Shown here: positions 1,622 through 11,522 of the stretch, in pieces
Position numbering within the stretch: the stretch's first letter is position 1
Layout: each line of letters opens with the position of its first letter
DNA from: a virus
Virus genome (UHGV): UHGV-1290461
DNA: 18,322 nucleotides
Strand: one strand, 5' to 3'
Made by a program: the position numbers and the translations under genes
The notes under the pieces: generated by a model
Databases searched by the model: none
What the model was told of the DNA's origin: nothing
What the model saw: only the letters and a program-made list of their open reading frames with translations

Positions 1622-2875
1622 TTACTGCCCGGCAATAACGATGCCCGTATATTCAGGAACAAGTACAGAGCAACCGTACAGAGTGGTGAAACGAGCAGTG
1701 GTTACGCCTTTGATGTGGTCGAAGGCATAAGACATGATCAGCGTAGCGCCCTGCTCGGTGGTTGCTGTCATTACCTGTGGCCCCTGCCCAGTCGGGAACG
1801 CCAGTTTGCCGTACATCAGTTCAACAGAACCATCAGCCCAGAACAGGTTAGCCGGTGCGGCATTTTTGTTGAGAATGGTGATTGCTGCTGATGCTGCCGG
1901 CTTGGCATCGACGTTTGCATATGGACGACTCGCAACATCGGCATTTTCAACAGGGAGAATCTTTGGAGAGATTGTTACGGTAGTTCCGCTAACAGCCAGA
2001 ACACGGAATACCTGCGGTTGCCCGGTGGTATCTTTTGTGATCTGGTGTACGGAATTCACACCGGCAATGGTGAACGCATCACCAACCTGCAAGCCAGATG
2101 CAGATACCGTAATAGTCCCCTGTCGGTTATCAACTGGCATACCATTTGAATCTTTCGCTTCAACCTTGTGTTCAGGTTGGCCTGATACTGTCAAGGATTC
2201 AGCGCTTCCTTTCGGTAATCGACCAGAAATATCGGTCTTGTAGCTATCAAAGGAAGCAACCGGAGGGATCTGCGCTTTTTCGTATGCTGTCAGGGTTGCG
2301 CCCTGAGCATAGGCACGGTGACCAAGCTCGCCAGCAAGGTCTTTGTAGTTGAATGGGTTCCAGAAAGAGCGGCGGTTGATACCCTGTGGTACACCAATCG
2401 CCGTCATGGTGGCATCAATACCTGCCGCACAGTTCCACAAATCACGGCCCTGTGAACCAGTGGTTGAGTCAGACATTGTGATCACGTTAGTAGCACGCTG
2501 CGTAACCATGGAAATCAGGTCAGAGTCAATCTGTGCAGCAAGGCGCATACCTGCGGCGCGACCAGCTTCAGTTTTATGTTCCGGGTCACGCATTTCACGC
2601 GCATCCAGAGTGTACAGAATGTTTTTCGGCTCCTTGAACACTGAAGGAACAAGGCGCTGAACCAGTGCTGTTGGCGTTTTGCCGCTGAGATCGAGGCCTT
2701 CCTCAATGTTCATGTGGTAATGCTGCGGACGATACAGAACATCACCTGCTCGCTGCATTGCTGTATCACCGGGACGGAATTTTTTAGCGTTACGGGAAAC
2801 TACGCAGGCGGCCTCAAAGCCTTCAACGTAGTTTTCGAACATGATTTCAAGGTCTTTTGCTAATTGGTTAGCCAT
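1622..2875 (-). CDS. Major capsid (coat) protein, P22/Sf6 gp5-like
   Basis: 417 aa, the size of P22-like coat proteins. Follows the scaffold gene. GGAG Shine-Dalgarno upstream of the ATG at 2875. Conserved stretches (AKK..P...MQR near the N-terminus, FWAD near the C-terminus) recalled from P22 coat. Confidence 0.82.
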   Translation of the reverse strand: MANQLAKDLEIMFENYVEGFEAACVVSRNAKKFRPGDTAMQRAGDVLYRPQHYHMNIEEGLDLSGKTPTALVQRLVPSVFKEPKNILYTLDAREMRDPEHKTEAGRAAGMRLAAQIDSDLISMVTQRATNVITMSDSTTGSQGRDLWNCAAGIDATMTAIGVPQGINRRSFWNPFNYKDLAGELGHRAYAQGATLTAYEKAQIPPVASFDSYKTDISGRLPKGSAESLTVSGQPEHKVEAKDSNGMPVDNRQGTITVSASGLQVGDAFTIAGVNSVHQITKDTTGQPQVFRVLAVSGTTVTISPKILPVENADVASRPYANVDAKPAASAAITILNKNAAPANLFWADGSVELMYGKLAFPTGQGPQVMTATTEQGATLIMSYAFDHIKGVTTARFTTLYGCSVLVPEYTGIVIAGQ

Positions 2876-2893
2876 GCTTAATGCTCCGATAGG

Positions 2894-3787
2894 TTATATT
2901 TTTGCCTTTTTAGCGGCGAAATACGGCGTCCAGTCACCAGTTTCCAGCGCCTTGGCTTTCAGTTTGTCGAGGTTATTGATTACTGCGCCGTTGCTCCCCT
3001 TAACTGTCGGGGTTGTGGCTGCCGTGGTTTTTGCTTTTGGCATGATTCTGGCCTTCGATTCGATACGTTCCAGCAGACGACCAATTGCTACGGGGTTGGT
3101 AGCTTCTGCCAGTTGCTTGCGCAGTTCAGCGTTGCGACCAAGCGCCAGAACAACGATTTCCGGCTTCTCTGACTCAAACAGGATCGCGTTTTGTGTCTCG
3201 ATGGGGATTTCCTCGAGTACGGCCTGTTCTGCTTCCTGATAGCCAGGAACCTTGAGAGCCTTAACACGTTGCTGATATTTGGATAATCGCTCTTGATAAG
3301 CAGCCTGAAGCTCCTGCTCCTTCTGCTTGCGAGCTATCTCCTGTTGCTGGTACTTTCCGTTATCCTCTGCCCACTTAGCCATGCGTTGCTGATAGATTTC
3401 TTCATCGAAACCGATGTCCTCATCATCCAGTTTTGGCATTCGCGGTGGTTGAGTGATTACCGGCTGCTGCTCGACGGGTTTCTGAGACTGACGCATCAGC
3501 TCTTTCAGCTCGCGATCTTTCTCTTTAATCGTCTTGCGCAGGTGTTTTACCAGTCCATGCTCTGCGCTATCTTCGCTGGTTGGCGAATCCAGCTTTTCGT
3601 CACCAAAGTAGAATTCCTGTTCTGATTCGTCGTCATCAGTTTCAGTAGCTTCCTCTGCATCATTGCCAGAGGACTCACTGCCATCTTCTGTTTCGACTTC
3701 TTCAGCCAGTTCGACATCATCAGGAATCTGCTCTGACGCGTCGGTTTCGATTTCAACTTCTGGTGTGTTTTCTGCCATCTGGTCCAT
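2894..3787 (-). CDS. Scaffolding protein, P22 gp8-like
   Basis: 297 aa with a strongly acidic N-terminus (E/D-rich), a charged coiled-coil-like middle and a basic C-terminal helix-turn-helix-like tail (KLKAKALETGDWTPYFAAKKAKI). Lies between portal and coat, as in P22. Confidence 0.65.
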   Translation of the reverse strand: MDQMAENTPEVEIETDASEQIPDDVELAEEVETEDGSESSGNDAEEATETDDDESEQEFYFGDEKLDSPTSEDSAEHGLVKHLRKTIKEKDRELKELMRQSQKPVEQQPVITQPPRMPKLDDEDIGFDEEIYQQRMAKWAEDNGKYQQQEIARKQKEQELQAAYQERLSKYQQRVKALKVPGYQEAEQAVLEEIPIETQNAILFESEKPEIVVLALGRNAELRKQLAEATNPVAIGRLLERIESKARIMPKAKTTAATTPTVKGSNGAVINNLDKLKAKALETGDWTPYFAAKKAKI

Positions 3788-3877
3788 TTGTTACCCCTGT
3801 TTACTCGATGTTCAGCCCATCGGAAGGCAATAGGGTGCCAGGCCTCATAAAGACAGCCATTGCACGTTATGGGTTAA

Positions 3878-6076
3878 TTACTGCTGTGGTTGTTGCCGGG
3901 TTGATTTTTGCAGGATGCTGCTGATGTCCATGCGCTGCGCATGGCCCTGTGCCTGACTTTTCAGGACAAGCTCTGCATCAGCACGGGCATTGTCTCCTTG
4001 CTGTTGCTGGAACTGTCCGAGCAGTTTCAGAGCCTCGCGGATATCAGATTTCTGCTGGCTATCGGCAGATGCGAGGATTTTCACAACATTTGCCGCTGCA
4101 ACCTGAGCATCAGTCTGTGCCTGGAATGCTTTAACCTGAATGGCTGCCTGTTCGTTCTGCGCTTTCTGCAATTCAGCCTGACCAGCAAGAAGCTGACCTT
4201 GCGCAGCAACCATAGCCGGATCTGGCTGACTGGCCTGTTGTTGTTTCGCCTGCTCAACCATCTGCTGTTCTTCTGGCGTTCTCGGCTTGATAACTCCAGA
4301 CAGAAGCAACTGATTGCGGTTGTATTCTTTAAGGTCGTCCATCCCTTCGCCGTCCATATTGTCGAGAATCATCGACGATACAAGGTCGTGCTTCGGCGTT
4401 CCTGGTGGGATAAGTGCCAGCATGGAAAGTAACGACTTAACCGTTGCATCACGGCGAGTAGCGAACGACTGACCAACATCGACCGTCACTTCATAGTTGC
4501 CCTGCGAAAGGTCATTAAGCGCGATAACCTGCCCTGTCTGACGGTCAACCACTTCACCAGTCATCAGCGCCACGTCATCGCTGCCGTCCTCATTAACGAT
4601 ACGCATCGGCGTATCACTGCCATAGACTTCACGAGCCATAGAAAGCCACACGACGCCAGCACGGCGCATGGATTTAGCCATGTTGTCCATGTAGATATAG
4701 GACTGCGTGTCCATCCGGTTAAAGATGCTATCAACGGTATCGGTAGCGACGTTGCTCGGCATGTTCTCAAGCTGCGACGCACCTGTAATTTGCTGAATAG
4801 CCGTTCCGGTGTACTGCAATAGCCCGGCAAGAGCAGGAGGCATTTGTGTCGGAGGTGTCCAGCCAGCTACCTGAGCCTCTGAAATGACCGTTCCGTTTTT
4901 GTCCTTCTTGCTGGTCATGGGAAGAACTGCAGGTCTTTTCTTATTCCTCTCTGCCCAGTGATTCATTAATGGGCCGGGAATGAAATCAACATCCACGATA
5001 GGAATGCCATCACCGCCAGCCTGAGTAGCGTTATCTGCAATCATGGAAACCATCAGGTTCTCAAGACGCTGTGCATCCATCGCTTTTGCTGCGTGGCCTT
5101 CGATTCGCTCCTGATTATCAACAAATGAGCGACGCCCATATACCGGGATGAGAGGAATATGTTCACCCGGAATACGCTTCGGTTCTTCCAGCCATTCAGC
5201 GCCAGACAGAAGACCGCAATAAACTCTGCGTTTCTTCACTGTCCTCTCACCGATCAGCTCGAATGCACCATCGGTTAGCTCGTCAACAATATCTTTGATT
5301 TGCTCTTCATCATAGATTGCCGTTTCTCCGCTAACAGGGTTGCGCCACGCCGTGAGCTTCACCTTCTCTATGCGAACTTCGTAGTAGCGTCCAACATAGA
5401 TGGCATCGGGCGTTGACCAGTCATATTGAGTGCCAGTGTCATCACGAGAAAGGCTTGCCGCGGTGGAATCAGGGTATTCAGCCTCGAACGCTTTGGGCGT
5501 CATGGAGAACATTTCCATAGCCCACATAGCATCAGAGCGGTCATATTGCTTGCTGTCCTGATCGAAGAAGACGCATGTCGCCGGGTCGTAAACAGGAAGA
5601 AGGCTGATGCGTCGCTGCTCGTTACTTGGGTCCATTTCATCTTCGTAATCGGCACACATGCGGAAACAACCGAATCCGCCTGTTACAGCATCATCAAATG
5701 CGTTATCACACGCTTCGCCACCGGATGTTTCCTGATAGTCAGCGCGGAATTTGCCGTTCATCTTTTCGGCTAACGCTTCCGATGCCTTGTCATCCTTCGG
5801 CCTGAATTTAACGCTGATGCGATTCTGTCGATACTCGCCAATGATGCGATCACATTCACGGGCAATCTTATTCAGTTCAAAACGCGGGTAATGCTCAAAC
5901 CTGCCCTCATCAAACGAGTAACCAGCGTTTGTGCTACCTTCCCACTGTGCGCCGGACACCCTGACGAAACGTTGAGCCTCAATAATCTGCTCACGCATAT
6001 CCTGCGTTGCTGACCAGGCATTATCAAAGTTGCACAGCACCTTGCGATGCCAGTCAGCCATCTTTTTTTCTGCCAT
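3878..6076 (-). CDS. Portal protein, P22-like, with long Q/A-rich C-terminal helical extension
   Basis: 732 aa, located immediately after TerL with start and stop nearly abutting (TGAtATG). C-terminal ~130 aa is Q/A-rich and predicted helical, like the P22 portal barrel. Confidence 0.88.
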   Translation of the reverse strand: MAEKKMADWHRKVLCNFDNAWSATQDMREQIIEAQRFVRVSGAQWEGSTNAGYSFDEGRFEHYPRFELNKIARECDRIIGEYRQNRISVKFRPKDDKASEALAEKMNGKFRADYQETSGGEACDNAFDDAVTGGFGCFRMCADYEDEMDPSNEQRRISLLPVYDPATCVFFDQDSKQYDRSDAMWAMEMFSMTPKAFEAEYPDSTAASLSRDDTGTQYDWSTPDAIYVGRYYEVRIEKVKLTAWRNPVSGETAIYDEEQIKDIVDELTDGAFELIGERTVKKRRVYCGLLSGAEWLEEPKRIPGEHIPLIPVYGRRSFVDNQERIEGHAAKAMDAQRLENLMVSMIADNATQAGGDGIPIVDVDFIPGPLMNHWAERNKKRPAVLPMTSKKDKNGTVISEAQVAGWTPPTQMPPALAGLLQYTGTAIQQITGASQLENMPSNVATDTVDSIFNRMDTQSYIYMDNMAKSMRRAGVVWLSMAREVYGSDTPMRIVNEDGSDDVALMTGEVVDRQTGQVIALNDLSQGNYEVTVDVGQSFATRRDATVKSLLSMLALIPPGTPKHDLVSSMILDNMDGEGMDDLKEYNRNQLLLSGVIKPRTPEEQQMVEQAKQQQASQPDPAMVAAQGQLLAGQAELQKAQNEQAAIQVKAFQAQTDAQVAAANVVKILASADSQQKSDIREALKLLGQFQQQQGDNARADAELVLKSQAQGHAQRMDISSILQKSTRQQPQQ

Positions 6077-6077
6077 A

Positions 6078-7493
6078 TCAACCTACACCACAAGGAATTG
6101 AGTAACTGGAATAGTCGGGTTGCGCAGCCGACTCCGGGCAATGCATACACATCATCAGCGCATCAGCCAGGTTAGGAGATGGAATACCGAGCTTCTGCTT
6201 CATTTCGACCTTAGTCATTAGCTCCAGCTTCCCGTTGTTATTGAATTTGCGCTGAATCTGCGTCAGTTCTGCAAACAGCTTCTCCAGCATCTTCTCGCCT
6301 ATCGCTTCTTTGTCGAAACTCAGCATGTCGTCTGGGTCTGCATACTCACCGTGAACAACCGCCCGATATGTCAGATACAGCCTGTCAGCCAGCGCGTAAT
6401 AGAATTGCGCTCGCTTATTGCGGAATACATCGCCAATAGTGCGAACATTGTCGCCCTGTACGACTTCATCAGCCCATGCTCCGGCCTGATAAGGCGCATC
6501 TTCATCGAATGGCGATTCGCTGCCCTTGAACATCGTGGCGGTGATTTTCTTGCCGGAGAACGCTTCCGTTGTCTGTCTGCGTAGCCCGGCACCAACACCA
6601 TCACCATCCCACAGGTAATGGTCAGCGCCGTCTTCAATTGCCAGCGAAGTAGCCCAGTCAGCACCCTCGTTGATGTCCATCAACAGACCTTCGGCAATGC
6701 GCTTAACTACCGAACCGTGACGCGATGCATAACCTTTAGCATCTGGCCCTGTATCTGATGGGTCATGCGCAGAGACAACAGCGCCTTTCGCTTTCCATCC
6801 GAGTTTCTTGTGCGCATCGGTTGCGGCTTCAAGCCATTCACGTTTGATGATTGCCATATCACTTGCGCTTACTGGCTCACCAAGCCAGATATGACGATAC
6901 AGTGTCGGATTTCTGCGTTTACACTCTTCCATCTCCAGACGGAGAACTTCAGGAAAGTGCGGGTTGTCGGTGTAGTTCACCGTCAGCAGACAAATATCAT
7001 CGGGAGGATTTACAACGAATCGCTGATAGGTATCGTCGAGGATGTTCTTCGGGTTAAAGCTCACCCATATTTCAGAGAACGGCTTACGGATGGTTGGGAT
7101 CAGGATATCCCATGATTCCTTCGTTACCGCTTCCGCTTCTTCCACCCAGCAGATATCAATGCCTTCGAGTGATTTAATCTTCGTCGGGTTGTTTTTGATG
7201 CCGTAGAACATGAACTCAGCATTCGTTCCGAGATGACGAATCATGGAACGCTGAATTTCAAACTCAGCCGAATACCCTTCACGCTCTATGGTGTCTTCAA
7301 GCAACCGGATTACCGAATCGCTGATACTGTTTTGCAGTTCACGAGCGCAGAGAATACGCACTGGCTGCCGACGCGCCGCTTCAACAAGCAGCCTCGCAAT
7401 TGCCCATGACTTACCGCTACCTCGACCGCCTTTGGCGACTTTGTAGCGATGCGCCTCAATGAACGGTTCAAAGATAGGATTAATCGAGGTCAT
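6078..7493 (-). CDS. Terminase large subunit, P22/Sf6 gp2-like
   Basis: 471 aa. Walker A motif KGGRGSGKS near the N-terminus. Start overlaps the TerS stop (ATGA). Size and position match Sf6-type TerL. Confidence 0.92.
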   Translation of the reverse strand: MTSINPIFEPFIEAHRYKVAKGGRGSGKSWAIARLLVEAARRQPVRILCARELQNSISDSVIRLLEDTIEREGYSAEFEIQRSMIRHLGTNAEFMFYGIKNNPTKIKSLEGIDICWVEEAEAVTKESWDILIPTIRKPFSEIWVSFNPKNILDDTYQRFVVNPPDDICLLTVNYTDNPHFPEVLRLEMEECKRRNPTLYRHIWLGEPVSASDMAIIKREWLEAATDAHKKLGWKAKGAVVSAHDPSDTGPDAKGYASRHGSVVKRIAEGLLMDINEGADWATSLAIEDGADHYLWDGDGVGAGLRRQTTEAFSGKKITATMFKGSESPFDEDAPYQAGAWADEVVQGDNVRTIGDVFRNKRAQFYYALADRLYLTYRAVVHGEYADPDDMLSFDKEAIGEKMLEKLFAELTQIQRKFNNNGKLELMTKVEMKQKLGIPSPNLADALMMCMHCPESAAQPDYSSYSIPCGVG

Positions 7494-7930
7494 TTTCCGA
7501 ATAGAGTGCTCATCGGTGATGTTTCAATCTGGATTGCGCCGCCGTCTTTGCCTGTTAGCTCGTGATCAACCTTGTCGCGCCATTTATCCTTCTGTCGGTT
7601 CTTAAGCCAGAAGATGGCGGCGGTTGTATCAGGCGGGTAATACTTCTCAAGCGGAGTTTCGACAATTCTGTTTTCAATAACACGAATATCGATGTCTGGA
7701 GCCACGAAGCCCATAGCGCGTTGATAAAGACGGTCACTAACTTCTGCATCAGCGACGGCCTTACCCTTTTTTATGGACTCCGAAAACTTAGGATAATCAA
7801 GCTTCCACTTGTTAATAGTTGACTCACTGACTTCAAAGAAATCAGCAAGTTCTGCGTCTGTATAGCCCAGCAAGCACAGTTTGCGTGCCTGTTCGGCATA
7901 CGCCTCTTGATACTTTGTTGGGCGCGCCAT
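7490..7930 (-). CDS. Terminase small subunit
   Basis: 146 aa immediately upstream of and overlapping TerL. N-terminal helix-turn-helix-like segment (TDAELADFFEVSESTINKW). GGAGC Shine-Dalgarno upstream. Confidence 0.8.
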   Translation of the reverse strand: MARPTKYQEAYAEQARKLCLLGYTDAELADFFEVSESTINKWKLDYPKFSESIKKGKAVADAEVSDRLYQRAMGFVAPDIDIRVIENRIVETPLEKYYPPDTTAAIFWLKNRQKDKWRDKVDHELTGKDGGAIQIETSPMSTLFGK

Positions 7931-9219: not shown

Positions 9220-9692
9220 ACCTCAATCTCTCTGACCGTTCCGCCAGCTTCTTTGAATTTTGCAATCAGGCTGTCAGCCTTATGCTCGAACTGACCATAA
9301 CCAGCGCCCGGCAGTGAAGCCCAGATATTGCTGCAACGGTCGATTGCCTGACGGATATCACCGCGATCAATCATCGGCAAAGCGCCACGCTCTTTAATCT
9401 GTTGCAGTGCCACAGCGTCCTGGCTTTTCGGAGAGAAGTCTTTCAGGCCAAGCTGCTTACGATAGGCATCCCACCAACGGGAAAGAAGCTGGTAACGTCC
9501 GGCTGCTGTTGATTTGAGTTTTGGGTTTAGCGTAACAAGTTTGCGAGGGTGATCGGAGTAATCAGTGAATAGCTCTCCGCCAACAATGACGTCATAACCA
9601 TGATTTCTGGTTTTCTGCCGTCCGTTATCAGTTCCCTCTGACCACGCCAGCATATCGAGAAACGCCTTACGTTGATTATTGATTTCCACCAT
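9216..9692 (-). CDS. R: Endolysin R (lytic transglycosylase)
   Basis: 158 aa. [53 protein letters not shown]... is essentially the lambda R sequence as recalled. Overlaps S by 17 nt, as in lambda. Confidence 0.95.
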
Positions 9693-9999
9693 CTTCTACT
9701 CCGGCTTTTTTAGCAGCGAAGCGTTTGATAAGCGAACCAATCGAGTCAGTACCGATGTAGCCGATGAACACGCTCGTTATATAAGCGAGATTGCTACTTA
9801 GTCCTGCGAAGTCGAGAAGGTCACGAATGAACCAGGCGATAATGGCGCACATCGTTGCGTCGATTACTGTTTTTGTAAACGCACCGCCATTATATCTGCC
9901 GCGAAGGTACGCCATTGCAAACGCAAGGATTGCCCCGATGCCTTGTTCCTTTGCCGCGAGAATGGCGGCTAACAGGTCATGTTTTTCTGGCATCTTCAT
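9676..9999 (-). CDS. S: Holin/antiholin S (S107 from the ATG at 9999, S105 from the ATG at 9993)
   Basis: 107 aa beginning [43 protein letters not shown], the lambda S dual-start motif (Met1-Lys2-Met3) and sequence as recalled. Confidence 0.95.
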
Positions 10000-10241
10000 G
10001 TCTTACCCCCAATAAGGGGATTTGCTCTATTTAATTAGGAATAAGGTCGATTACTGATAGAACAAATCCAGGCTACTGTGTTTAGTAATCAGATTTGTTC
10101 GTGACCGATATGCACGGGCAAAACGGCAGGAGGTTGTTAGCGCAGCCTCTTGCCACCCGCTTTCACGAAGGTCATGTGTAGAAGGCCGCAGCGTAACTAT
10201 CACTGATGAATTCAGGATAGCCAGTGGCTACGGCTCAGTTA

Positions 10242-10317
10242 TGGTGCTGGTTAACGGACTTGAACCGCTACCCATTCGCTTACAAGGCGACCGCTCTACC
10301 ATTGGAGCTAAACCAGC
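10242..10317 (-). tRNA. tRNA-Thr (anticodon UGU), 76 nt with encoded CCA
   Basis: Hand-folded cloverleaf: acceptor GCUGGUU/AACCAGC (7 bp); D-arm GCUC/GAGC; anticodon loop CUUGUAA; T-arm AGCGG/CCGUU with loop UUCAAGU; discriminator A then CCA. Non-canonical points: G27-A43 mismatch and C at position 14. Confidence 0.65.
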
Positions 10318-10322
10318 ATGTT

Positions 10323-10397
10323 TGGCGGGACAGCGTGGACTCGAACCACGATAAGAAGGTTAACAGCCTTCCGTAATGACCTTTATACGACTGACCC
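10323..10397 (-). tRNA. tRNA-Asn-like (anticodon GUU), 75 nt with encoded CCA
   Basis: Hand-folded: acceptor GGGUCAG/CUGUCCC (one U-U mismatch); anticodon stem GAAGG/CCUUC with loop CUGUUAA (same loop as E. coli tRNA-Asn); T-arm CGUGG/CCACG with loop UUCGAGU; G73 then CCA. Weak D-stem and 4-nt variable loop. Confidence 0.55.
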
Positions 10398-10442
10398 AAA
10401 TAAAAAAGCCACCGTTGCAACTTAAGAGTCACTAACGGCAGC
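10398..10442 (-). terminator. Putative tR'-like intrinsic terminator between the late promoter and the tRNAs
   Basis: Minus RNA GCUGCCGUU...(17-nt loop)...AACGGUGGC forms a 9-bp stem including two G-U pairs, followed by UUUUUUAUUU. Lies about 45 nt downstream of the predicted late transcription start. Confidence 0.45.
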
Positions 10443-10446
10443 TTAC

Positions 10447-10482
10447 CTGCTAATTATGGCTAAATGACTAATTGCATGTCAA
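10447..10482 (-). promoter_or_regulatory. Putative late promoter pR' (-35 TTGACA, 18-bp spacer, -10 CATAAT), overlapping the 3' end of Q
   Basis: Consensus -35 TTGACA at 10482..10477 (inside the last Q codons) and -10 CATAAT at 10458..10453, immediately after the Q stop codon. Confidence 0.5.
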
Positions 10483-10978
10483 GGCTTTTAACAGCAACAT
10501 GCTTAACTTTCTCAACACGTTTACGCATTTTGAAAGCATTTTGCATTGGCTGGTACAAAACAAATAACGACGCTTTCAGGATGTCGTCAATTTCGTTTCT
10601 ACAGGTTGCCAGTGAAGGTTTTCTCCATCCCTCGCCACCACGTCCACACATCTTGCGTGGCTTTGCAGTCGCGTGATAGTAGGATGCAATTGCTCGCTTA
10701 GATGAACCATGAGCGTAGTAGCTGAGGAGGATGCCAAAGGCTTTCTTGTCAATGTACATGACGGAATCGACGACCTGAGAAATCAACATTCCATCATCAT
10801 CATTACACATTGGCCTTGTCATAATTCTTCCCGGCTCTACGCTCTCCATGAACTTCGCTATTACGCTGCTCATGCGCTTTTCCAGACGACCTGAATAAAC
10901 CCATGCGCCCCACAGTTCAAGCCAGCCATTCAGCCACTCGTGCTGCTCTTTGGTGAGGTTTAGTTCTCTTATGCTCAT
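10460..10978 (-). CDS. Q: Late-gene antiterminator Q, phage-82/QuuD-like family
   Basis: 172 aa. Motifs LELWGAWVYSG and TRPMCNDDDGMLISQVVD resemble the ERWGAW and RPxCxDDDxM motifs of the phage-82-type Q family. Sits between the nin region and the lysis genes. Confidence 0.75.
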   Translation of the reverse strand: MSIRELNLTKEQHEWLNGWLELWGAWVYSGRLEKRMSSVIAKFMESVEPGRIMTRPMCNDDDGMLISQVVDSVMYIDKKAFGILLSYYAHGSSKRAIASYYHATAKPRKMCGRGGEGWRKPSLATCRNEIDDILKASLFVLYQPMQNAFKMRKRVEKVKHVAVKSLDMQLVI

Positions 10979-11163
10979 CGTCTTCCCCTCTTGCCCTGTT
11001 TGACCATCAGGACGCCGTTAACTATTACGTGACGCTCGCCTTTGCTGTCTCGGTTGTACTTGAGCACTGTTCCTCTTGCGCAGGAAAGCATCCTCGCCAC
11101 TTCGGTCTGATTGCCTCGTGTCTGGATAAGAAGCTCTGGTATCGTTTGAATTGTGGCGTTCAT
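10975..11163 (-). CDS. ninH: NinH-like small DNA-binding protein
   Basis: 62 aa. TIPELLIQTRGNQTEVARMLSCARGTVLKY...IVNGVLMV fits the recalled NinH pattern (helix-turn-helix, Fis-like). Directly upstream of Q with an ATGA overlap. Confidence 0.6.
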   Translation of the reverse strand: MNATIQTIPELLIQTRGNQTEVARMLSCARGTVLKYNRDSKGERHVIVNGVLMVKQGKRGRR

Positions 11164-11522
11164 GCGTTCTCCAGTTCGGTGATTTTTATTCCAAGCCTTC
11201 CGCCTGGTACTTTCACGCCACGAATTACGCGAATGTCATCGAATTGCTCGTCGTCTTCCGCAAATCCGGCGTGGATAAGGGAGTCGAGTAAACCTTTCAG
11301 GATATTATCGAGGTCGCGACGGCGGGAGTCTGGAACGTCTGCGATGACTTTGATGCGGAGTCGTGATTTGGTGAAAATATCTAACTTGAGTTGGTGGATG
11401 ATTTGCTGAACGTCTTTTCGGTATTTCTGGCCTTTATCGCTGATGTAGTATTGGCTTCCCCGTCTTCGCCAGTAGGTATTCACCGACGGCGGGTATGGAA
11501 GCACAAACTGATATTCGTTCAT
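11160..11522 (-). CDS. rusA: Holliday junction resolvase RusA
   Basis: 120 aa. YPPSVNTYWRRRG, DVPDSRRRDLDNILKGLLDSL and GGRLGIKITEL match RusA (E. coli RusA is 120 aa and has the PDRRRRDLDN catalytic motif). Confidence 0.9.
   Translation of the reverse strand: MNEYQFVLPYPPSVNTYWRRRGSQYYISDKGQKYRKDVQQIIHQLKLDIFTKSRLRIKVIADVPDSRRRDLDNILKGLLDSLIHAGFAEDDEQFDDIRVIRGVKVPGGRLGIKITELENA

What the first reader, a model, noticed from the sequence alone, without database searches (positions are those of the whole stretch)
10398..10482. Very compact late control region: consensus -35 inside the Q coding sequence and a ~45-nt terminated leader
TTGACA-18-CATAAT overlaps the Q stop codon and is followed about 45 nt later by a hairpin and U-tract. 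This architecture (short paused or terminated transcript acted on by Q) fits an 82-type Q and differs from lambda, where the 6S RNA is about 194 nt. Any Q-binding element must lie inside the 3' end of the Q gene itself.
Basis: inference. Interest (0 to 1): 0.4.

Follow-up and report, generated by a model that had tools for sequence, protein, structure and literature searches.

The report
Phage 21-type late promoter and terminator

Summary
On the minus strand, TTGACA (10482-10477), an 18-bp spacer and CATAAT (10458-10453) straddle the Q stop codon (10462-10460). A strong hairpin and T-run end 45-49 nt after the inferred start. Q (172 aa) belongs to the phage 21 family (Pfam PF06530; E 1e-91 to solved Q21 structures), not the 82 family (PF06323). 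The region is colinear with the curated phage 21 annotation: -35, two tandem 8-bp Q-binding subsites in the spacer, -10, start, pause element TAAGCTG, tR', then tRNA-Asn and tRNA-Thr. It is about 98% identical to Sf6, whose GenBank record already annotates pR', qut, tR' and both tRNAs. The Q-binding repeat here (AATTAGTC/ATTTAGCC) differs from phage 21 (ATTGAGCA/AATGAGCA). Q's base-reading residues differ too (H95R, R128N). The phage L genome paper already noted this. I extended it to 52 loci (30 dereplicated lineages): residues 128, 95 and 124 track bases 4, 8 and 5 of the subsite. One unusual base (T at -21, 10467) was found in no other sequence searched. Verdict: already known, low interest.

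The parts
10460..10978 (-). Q antiterminator gene, 172 aa, Q21 family, Sf6/L subtype with a 10-residue C-terminal extension
   Evidence: ORF list. Pfam PF06530, E 1.6e-25. PDB 6jnx/6p18 Q21, E 1e-91. Residues 1-86 are at least 97% identical to phage 21 at DNA level and the rest about 70%.
10477..10482 (-). -35 hexamer TTGACA of pR', inside Q codons 166-168
   Evidence: Aligns with the annotated -35 of phage 21 pR'.
10466..10473 (-). Upstream Q-binding subsite (QBEu) AATTAGTC, with an unusual T at 10467 (position -21)
   Evidence: Homologous position to phage 21 QBEu ATTGAGCA. Relatives have AATTAGCC or AATTATCC. T10467 is the only mismatch to the closest E. coli genome.
10458..10465 (-). Downstream Q-binding subsite (QBEd) ATTTAGCC, which contains the Q stop codon TAG and shares its last base with the -10
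   Evidence: Homologous to phage 21 QBEd AATGAGCA. Invariant in all Sf6-type loci examined. Same sequence proposed as the QBE of phage L (PMC8022706).
10453..10458 (-). -10 hexamer CATAAT of pR'
   Evidence: Aligns with the phage 21 -10 AACACT.
10446..10446 (-). Inferred transcription start (G), uncertain by about 2-3 nt
   Evidence: Seventh base after the -10, aligned to the annotated phage 21 start. Not mapped experimentally for this variant.
10439..10445 (-). Sigma-dependent pause element TAAGCTG (+2 to +8), identical to phage 21
   Evidence: A TAnnnT element sits at a fixed 13-nt spacing from QBEd in all 52 loci tabulated.
10398..10444 (-). tR' intrinsic terminator: hairpin 10444-10406 (G+C-rich core 10442-10408) and T-run TTTTTTATTT 10407-10398. 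The 5' arm overlaps the pause element.
   Evidence: Fold -20.2 kcal/mol, z -4.6. Hairpin identical to the annotated phage 21 terminator. Annotated as tR' in Sf6 and HK75.
10323..10397 (-). tRNA-Asn (GTT), first gene of the late transcript, starting directly after the T-run
   Evidence: ARAGORN. Rfam RF00005, 55.3 bits. Same gene in phage 21 and Sf6.
10242..10317 (-). tRNA-Thr (TGT)
   Evidence: Rfam 61.2 bits..
9676..9999 (-). Holin, the first protein-coding late gene downstream
   Evidence: Pfam PF05106, E 2.4e-30.

Best explanation
This is the late-gene control cassette of a phage 21-family Q antiterminator, in the Sf6/L subtype. Host sigma-70 RNA polymerase starts at pR' at about 10446. Sigma region 2 re-binds the -10-like element TAAGCT at +2 to +7 and pauses the polymerase after roughly 14-18 nt. 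Without Q, the polymerase finishes the hairpin (+3 to +41) and terminates in the U-run, giving a 45-49 nt RNA. With Q, two Q protomers bind the tandem 8-bp subsites in the promoter spacer (AATTAGTC/ATTTAGCC). The upstream protomer inserts a ring into the RNA-exit channel, the nascent RNA threads through it, and the hairpin cannot form. The polymerase then reads through tR' into tRNA-Asn, tRNA-Thr, the lysis genes and the head genes. What is shown here: the sequence elements, their homology and register with phage 21, the family assignment, the RNA fold, and family-wide conservation. What is inferred from phage 21 experiments: the start site, the pause, Q binding to this variant repeat, and Q-dependent readthrough.
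For: Q is PF06530, the Q21 family (PMC9388147), and matches the solved Q21 at E 1e-91. The base-by-base alignment with the curated phage 21 record puts the -35, QBEu, QBEd, -10, start, SDPE, terminator and both tRNAs in the same order and register. The SDPE, hairpin and tRNAs are essentially identical. The Sf6 record (97.9% identical over the 1-kb query) annotates pR', qut, tR' and the tRNAs, citing similarity to phage 21. HK75 annotates pR' and tR'. The leader hairpin is -20.2 kcal/mol, z -4.6. The mechanism in phage 21 is established by structures and in vitro antitermination on 21 pR'-tR' templates (PMC6606751; bioRxiv 10.1101/651190). The variant repeat is supported as the real Q site by covariation in 30 dereplicated lineages: R128 with G4 in 21/22 and N or K128 with T4 in 8/8 (p 1.5e-6); R95 with C8 (p 3.8e-6); R124 with G5 (p 4.2e-5). 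The phage L paper reached the same reading (PMC8022706).
Against: No experiment exists on this variant: no mapped start, no pause assay, no Q-binding or readthrough assay. The spacer is 18 bp (17 in phage 21). The upstream subsite carries a T at -21, and substitution of the C:G pair at that position in phage 21 affects antitermination (PMC6606751), so loading could be weaker in this particular genome. The covariation could owe much to physical linkage, since the QBE lies within about 200 bp of the codons concerned, and to shared ancestry.
Confidence: 0.9

Rival explanations
1. One reading: an 82-type Q system, in which a Q82-family protein acts on a short paused or terminated transcript.
For: Only the general architecture: Q gene, promoter at its end, short leader and terminator. 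All Q families share this (PMC9388147).
Against: Q matches PF06530 (Q21 family) at 89.8 bits, and no PF06323 (Q82 family) match was listed at E <= 0.01. E 1e-91 to Q21 structures. The pause element, terminator and tRNAs are identical to phage 21.
Confidence: 0.02
2. The 45-49 nt terminated leader is itself a functional small RNA in lysogens, acting in trans as StxS does in Stx phages, in addition to being a by-product of the switch.
For: Terminated pR' transcripts can become Hfq-binding regulatory sRNAs (PMC7547250). pR' here is near-consensus and probably constitutive. The leader sequence is highly conserved across phages with different Q/QBE blocks.
Against: Nearly the whole RNA is locked in one hairpin. 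Only 2 nt at the 5' end, a 4-nt loop and the U-tail are unpaired, which leaves no obvious seed. No Rfam family matches it. Conservation is explained by the pause element and terminator function. A second, unrelated leader module substitutes for it behind the same Q.
Confidence: 0.05
3. The two tRNAs, and perhaps the late genes, are driven mainly by a separate promoter, and the hairpin serves chiefly as a terminator for rightward early transcription through Q or as a tRNA-processing element.
For: The phage L paper states it is unknown whether these tRNAs are excised from late mRNA or expressed from an unidentified promoter (PMC8022706).
Against: There is no room for a promoter between the T-run (ends 10398) and tRNA-Asn (starts 10397). 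The only strong promoter match in 9500-11500 is pR'. Related phages carry the same cassette without the tRNAs.
Confidence: 0.03

Closest known systems
Phage 21 late control region (Q21, pR'21, QBE, SDPE, tR'21, tRNA-Asn/Thr), as curated in OL657228 and in the 2019 structure papers
   Same: The order and register of all elements are the same. Q residues 1-86 are at least 97% identical at DNA level. The pause element TAAGCTG, the terminator hairpin and both tRNAs are essentially identical.
   Different: The block from Q residue ~87 to +1 is only about 70% identical. The QBE is AATTAGTC/ATTTAGCC rather than ATTGAGCA/AATGAGCA. Base-reading residues differ (H95R, R128N), as does loop 116-119. The -10 is CATAAT rather than AACACT, and the spacer is 18 rather than 17 bp. 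Q is 10 residues longer, so the -35 and QBE lie inside or over the end of the gene. The T-run is one T shorter.
Shigella phage Sf6 gene 59 / pR' / qut / tR' (AF547987) and Salmonella phage L / ST64T gene 23 region (PMC8022706)
   Same: Same subtype: 97.9% identity to Sf6 over the 1-kb query, the same 172-aa Q, the same QBEd, -10, pause element, terminator and tRNAs. Sf6 already annotates every element. The L paper already proposes AATTATCC/ATTTAGCC as the QBE and notes the changed contact residues.
   Different: The window has T instead of C at 10467, so QBEu is AATTAGTC and Q has A171V. Phage L reportedly carries tRNA-Leu instead of tRNA-Thr (PMC8022706).
Lambda Q / pR' / 6S RNA / tR'
   Same: Same logic: a QBE in the promoter spacer, a sigma-dependent promoter-proximal pause, and Q-modified polymerase reading through tR' by a nozzle mechanism (PMC9388147).
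   Different: The protein family is unrelated (PF03589) and is not a structural homologue of Q21 (PMC9388147). By established knowledge lambda's leader is much longer (about 194 nt), and lambda needs an extra -35-like element (PMC6606751).
Phage 82 Q
   Same: Functional analogue occupying the same genomic position (PMC9388147).
   Different: Different protein family (PF06323), with no match listed here.

Membership tests
Q21-family antitermination cassette | Q protein matches Pfam PF06530 above the gathering score | tested here: met
   89.8 bits against a cut-off of 26, E 1.6e-25. PF06530 is the Q21 family according to PMC9388147.
Q21-family antitermination cassette | Sequence homology to the structurally solved Q21 | tested here: met
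   E 1.3e-91 over residues 1-162 against 6jnx/6p18. 85% identity.
Q21-family antitermination cassette | Two tandem 8-bp direct-repeat Q-binding subsites in the pR' spacer, the downstream one abutting the -10 | tested here: met
   AATTAGTC/ATTTAGCC, 6 of 8 positions identical to each other, in the same register as phage 21 QBEu/QBEd. The sequence differs from phage 21, and actual binding was not tested.
Q21-family antitermination cassette | -10-like sigma-dependent pause element at +2 to +7 | tested here: met
   TAAGCT(G) identical to the annotated phage 21 SDPE, 13 nt after QBEd.
Q21-family antitermination cassette | Intrinsic terminator between the pause site and the late genes | tested here: met
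   Hairpin -20.2 kcal/mol, z -4.6, followed by a T-run. Identical to phage 21 tR'.
Q21-family antitermination cassette | Q-dependent readthrough of tR' and a promoter-proximal pause | not testable with these tools
   Shown only for phage 21 itself (PMC6606751; 10.1101/651190).
   Only PF06530 and PF06576 were reported at E <= 0.01.
Lambda-type Q system | Q protein matches Pfam PF03589 | tested here: not met
   No PF03589 match. The leader is 45-49 nt, against about 194 nt in lambda by established knowledge.
Terminated-pR' regulatory sRNA (StxS-like) | Stable, chaperone-bound RNA with an accessible seed that pairs with targets | not testable with these tools
   No Rfam match. The fold leaves almost nothing single-stranded. 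No expression or binding data.

The most novel reading that the evidence does not exclude
The Q21 family may use a simple, readable recognition code, of which this window is one class. Residue 128 (R or N) would select base 4 of the 8-bp subsite (G or T). Residue 95 (R or other) would select base 8 (C or A). Residue 124 (R or other) would select base 5 (G or A). All four 95/128 combinations occur in nature (TGAGCA, TGAGCC, TTAGCC, TTAGCA). Sf6/L-type Q and Q21 would then be mutually orthogonal antiterminators, even though they share an identical N-terminal half, pause element and terminator. The Q 3' end plus QBE would be an exchangeable specificity cassette. The phage L paper already inferred different specificities for L and 21. 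The family-wide three-position code is, as far as I could find, not stated in the papers I read.
Probability: 0.6. Interest if true: 0.4.

Novelty: already known. Interest (0 to 1): 0.15.

Why it matters
For this window it matters little. The cassette is a textbook Q21-type late switch, annotated in Sf6 in GenBank and discussed for phage L. The 221-bp query (10380-10600) matches at 80% coverage or more in 671 of 5426 complete E. coli genomes. The practical value is correct annotation: Q family, pR', QBE, pause element, tR', and the fact that the tRNAs are the first late genes. The wider survey gives a modest extra. It offers natural evidence for which Q residues read which QBE bases, which could guide the design of orthogonal antiterminator and promoter pairs. 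It also helps explain how co-resident lambdoid prophages keep their late switches separate.

Tried and rejected
- **Rfam:** a search of 9900-10700 at E <= 1 found only the two tRNAs and no leader RNA family.
- **Terminator scan:** the simple scan missed tR' because its loop limit is too small, so I used folding instead.
- **Exact-match scan:** the window's 30-mer promoter found nothing in IMG/VR.
- **1991 phage 21 paper:** PMC207295 is not held in the library. I relied on the curated phage 21 GenBank annotation and the 2019 structure papers.
- **Base-by-base contacts:** the contacts of H95 and R128 could not be read because they are only in figures. The residue-to-base assignments therefore rest on covariation alone.
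- **82-type and lambda-type membership:** rejected on Pfam.
- **Separate tRNA promoter:** rejected for lack of space.
- **sRNA role for the leader:** judged unlikely from the fold.
- **First viral scan:** the window's Q returned only relatives at 98-99% identity, which were useless for covariation. The species-dereplicated genome scan supplied the diversity.

Full report
**Observation**

The genes in this part of the window run on the minus strand. Read on that strand, TTGACA lies at 10482-10477 and CATAAT at 10458-10453, 18 bp apart. This is 11 of 12 consensus positions and the only match of that quality in 9500-11500.

The upstream ORF (10978-10460, 172 aa) ends with TAG at 10462-10460, inside the spacer. 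The -35 lies in its codons 166-168.

From the inferred start at 10446, the RNA folds into a single hairpin spanning +3 to +41. Its energy is -20.2 kcal/mol, z = -4.6, and none of 200 shuffles folded as well. TTTTTTATTT (10407-10398) follows, so termination would give a 45-49 nt RNA.

The hairpin starts almost at the transcription start, and 45 nt is the length of the whole leader.

tRNA-Thr follows at 10317-10242.

**What it is**

The ORF matches Pfam PF06530 at 89.8 bits against a cut-off of 26. No PF06323 or PF03589 match was listed. PMC9388147 defines PF06530 as the Q21 family, PF06323 as the Q82 family and PF03589 as the lambda Q family.

The protein aligns over residues 1-162 with the crystallised Q21 (6jnx, 6p18) at E about 1e-91. 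So the "82-type" assignment is wrong.

The complete phage 21 genome (OL657228) carries a curated, literature-based annotation of its late region:
- -35
- QBEu ATTGAGCA and QBEd AATGAGCA
- -10 AACACT
- transcription start
- sigma-dependent pause element
- terminator
- tRNA-Asn and tRNA-Thr

A base-by-base alignment puts every one of these in the same order and register in the window:

| Element | Window coordinates (minus strand) | Sequence |
|---|---|---|
| -35 | 10482-10477 | TTGACA |
| QBEu | 10473-10466 | AATTAGTC |
| QBEd | 10465-10458 | ATTTAGCC |
| -10 | 10458-10453 | CATAAT |
| Start | about 10446 | G |
| Pause element | 10445-10439 | TAAGCTG |
| Terminator | 10444-10398 | hairpin and T-run |

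The pause element, the hairpin and both tRNAs are essentially identical to phage 21.

**Already annotated and described**

The 1-kb query (10000-11000) is 97.9% identical to Shigella phage Sf6. The Sf6 GenBank record annotates the late promoter as nearly identical to that of phage 21. It also annotates the qut site, tR' and the two tRNAs. HK75 likewise annotates pR' and tR'.

The phage L genome paper (PMC8022706) states the following:
- L gp23 is 80% identical to Q21.
- Its presumptive QBE is AATTATCC/ATTTAGCC rather than ATTGAGCA/AATGAGCA.
- The divergence lies from residue 94 to the C-terminus, which is the DNA-contacting part.
- Three of six contact residues differ, so a different target specificity is expected.

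That is this same subtype.

A 221-bp query (10380-10600) matches at 80% coverage or more in 671 of 5426 complete E. coli genomes.

**Mechanism**

The mechanism is transferred from phage 21, where it is experimentally established (PMC6606751; bioRxiv 10.1101/651190):
1. Polymerase starting at pR' is held by sigma region 2 at the -10-like element in the initial transcribed region.
2. Two Q protomers bind the direct-repeat QBE in the spacer.
3. The upstream protomer forms a ring in the RNA-exit channel that admits only single-stranded RNA.
4. The terminator hairpin cannot form, and the polymerase reads on.

In the window, the 5' arm of the terminator hairpin overlaps the pause element. Q must therefore load within the first ~18 nt and act about 30 nt later. 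This compactness is a property of phage 21 itself, not a novelty of this window.

For this variant, the start site, the pause, Q binding and readthrough are inferences.

**Mosaic structure**

Against phage 21, the window divides into blocks:

| Window segment | Content | Identity to phage 21 |
|---|---|---|
| 10990-10721 | Q residues 1-86 | at least 97% |
| 10720-10447 | rest of Q, -35, QBE, -10 | about 70% |
| 10446-10181 | pause element, tR', tRNAs | about 100% |
| below 10181 | lysis genes | diverged again |

Among 80 viral contigs carrying the same Q, the Q/QBE block is joined to one of two leaders. One is the 21-type leader. The other is an unrelated, longer leader with pause element TATGCT and a different terminator. 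The block also occurs with or without the tRNAs. The DNA-reading part of Q and its site therefore travel together as a unit.

**Extension: residue and base covariation**

I collected 44 species-level loci plus phage representatives. I located the QBE by a sequence-independent rule: QBEd ends 13 nt before a TAnnnT pause element. Every locus then showed a tandem 8-bp repeat next to a -35.

After dereplication to 30 cluster-by-state representatives:

| Q residue | QBEd base | Counts | Fisher p |
|---|---|---|---|
| 128: R vs N/K | position 4: G vs T | R with G 21/22; N/K with T 8/8 | 1.5e-6 |
| 95: R vs other | position 8: C vs A | R with C 10/11; other with A 18/19 | 3.8e-6 |
| 124: R vs other | position 5: G vs A | R with G 5/6; other with G 0/24 | 4.2e-5 |

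Mismatched residue and base pairings used as controls were far weaker (p 0.03-0.04). All four 95/128 combinations occur (TGAGCA, TGAGCC, TTAGCC, TTAGCA).

H95, A124 and R128 are among the residues that PMC6606751 lists as base contacts. The window has R95, A124 and N128, which fits its TTAGCC-type site.

Two caveats apply. The site lies within about 200 bp of these codons, so linkage and shared ancestry inflate the statistics. The exact base contacts are only in the papers' figures, which I could not read.

**A private variant**

The window's QBEu (AATTAGTC) was found nowhere else. There was no exact 30-mer match in IMG/VR. The closest E. coli genomes differ from the window at a single base of 221, and in the one hit I aligned (H91) that base is 10467, T here against C there.

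The base sits at -21, the position whose C:G pair affects antitermination when substituted in phage 21 (PMC6606751). It also changes Q residue 171 from Ala to Val. Natural relatives tolerate another change in this low-affinity subsite (AATTATCC), so the effect may be small.

**Verdict**

The feature is already known and annotated, so interest is low. The only modestly new element is the family-wide residue and base pattern.

Noticed in passing
window 10467 (minus strand T; position -21 of pR'; Q codon 171): A single-base variant makes QBEu AATTAGTC and Q A171V. It is absent from IMG/VR as an exact 30-mer. It is the only mismatch (221 bases compared) to the closest complete E. coli genome that I aligned. 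It sits at the position equivalent to the -21 C:G pair that matters for antitermination in phage 21.
   Followed up: partly
window + strand 10653-10666 and 10680-10685 (antisense to Q): TTGCGTGGCTTTGC fits the CII-binding pattern TTGYN6TTGY. A -10-like TAGGAT lies 13 bp downstream. Both are at the position homologous to the paQ antisense promoter annotated inside phage 21 Q (L003 1194-1226). The site is kept even though this part of Q is only about 70% identical to phage 21.
   Followed up: partly
window 10242-10397; loci L007-L086: tRNA-Asn starts on the base right after the terminator T-run, so the leader would be released by RNase P cleavage on readthrough. Relatives with the same Q either carry or lack the two tRNAs. 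Some have a different, longer leader-terminator module (pause element TATGCT, hairpin GCCCACCTCCTGTGGGC) behind the same promoter and QBE.
   Followed up: partly
window 10460-10489 (Q residues 163-172, VKSLDMQLVI): This Q has a 10-residue C-terminal extension relative to Q21. In Q21 the last six residues become ordered and contact the RNA polymerase alpha/beta interface in the loading complex (10.1101/651190). The extension could therefore alter that contact. Other family members have extensions of various lengths.
   Followed up: no
L093 (Shimwellia pseudoproteus), L109 (Cedecea), L122 (Edwardsiella hoshinae), L123 (Arsenophonus): These are exceptions or extra classes in the residue and base pattern. 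L093 has R95 but keeps TGAGCA. L109 has K128 and E124 with ATTTACCC. L122 has Q127 with ATTGGCAC. L123 may be mis-registered.
   Followed up: no
window 1622-7930 (minus strand): Large ORFs of 146, 471, 732, 297 and 417 aa downstream of the lysis genes are what I would expect for terminase, portal, scaffold and coat genes of a P22/Sf6-like head module. The closest phage hits for the Q region are Sf6-like. This would suggest a Lederbergvirus-like phage or prophage. These ORFs were not searched.
   Followed up: no
window 10460-10978, residues 56-150: Q also gives a secondary Pfam match to DUF1133 (PF06576, E 2.4e-8) overlapping the Q21-family match. This suggests DUF1133 is a related antiterminator-like family.
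   Followed up: no
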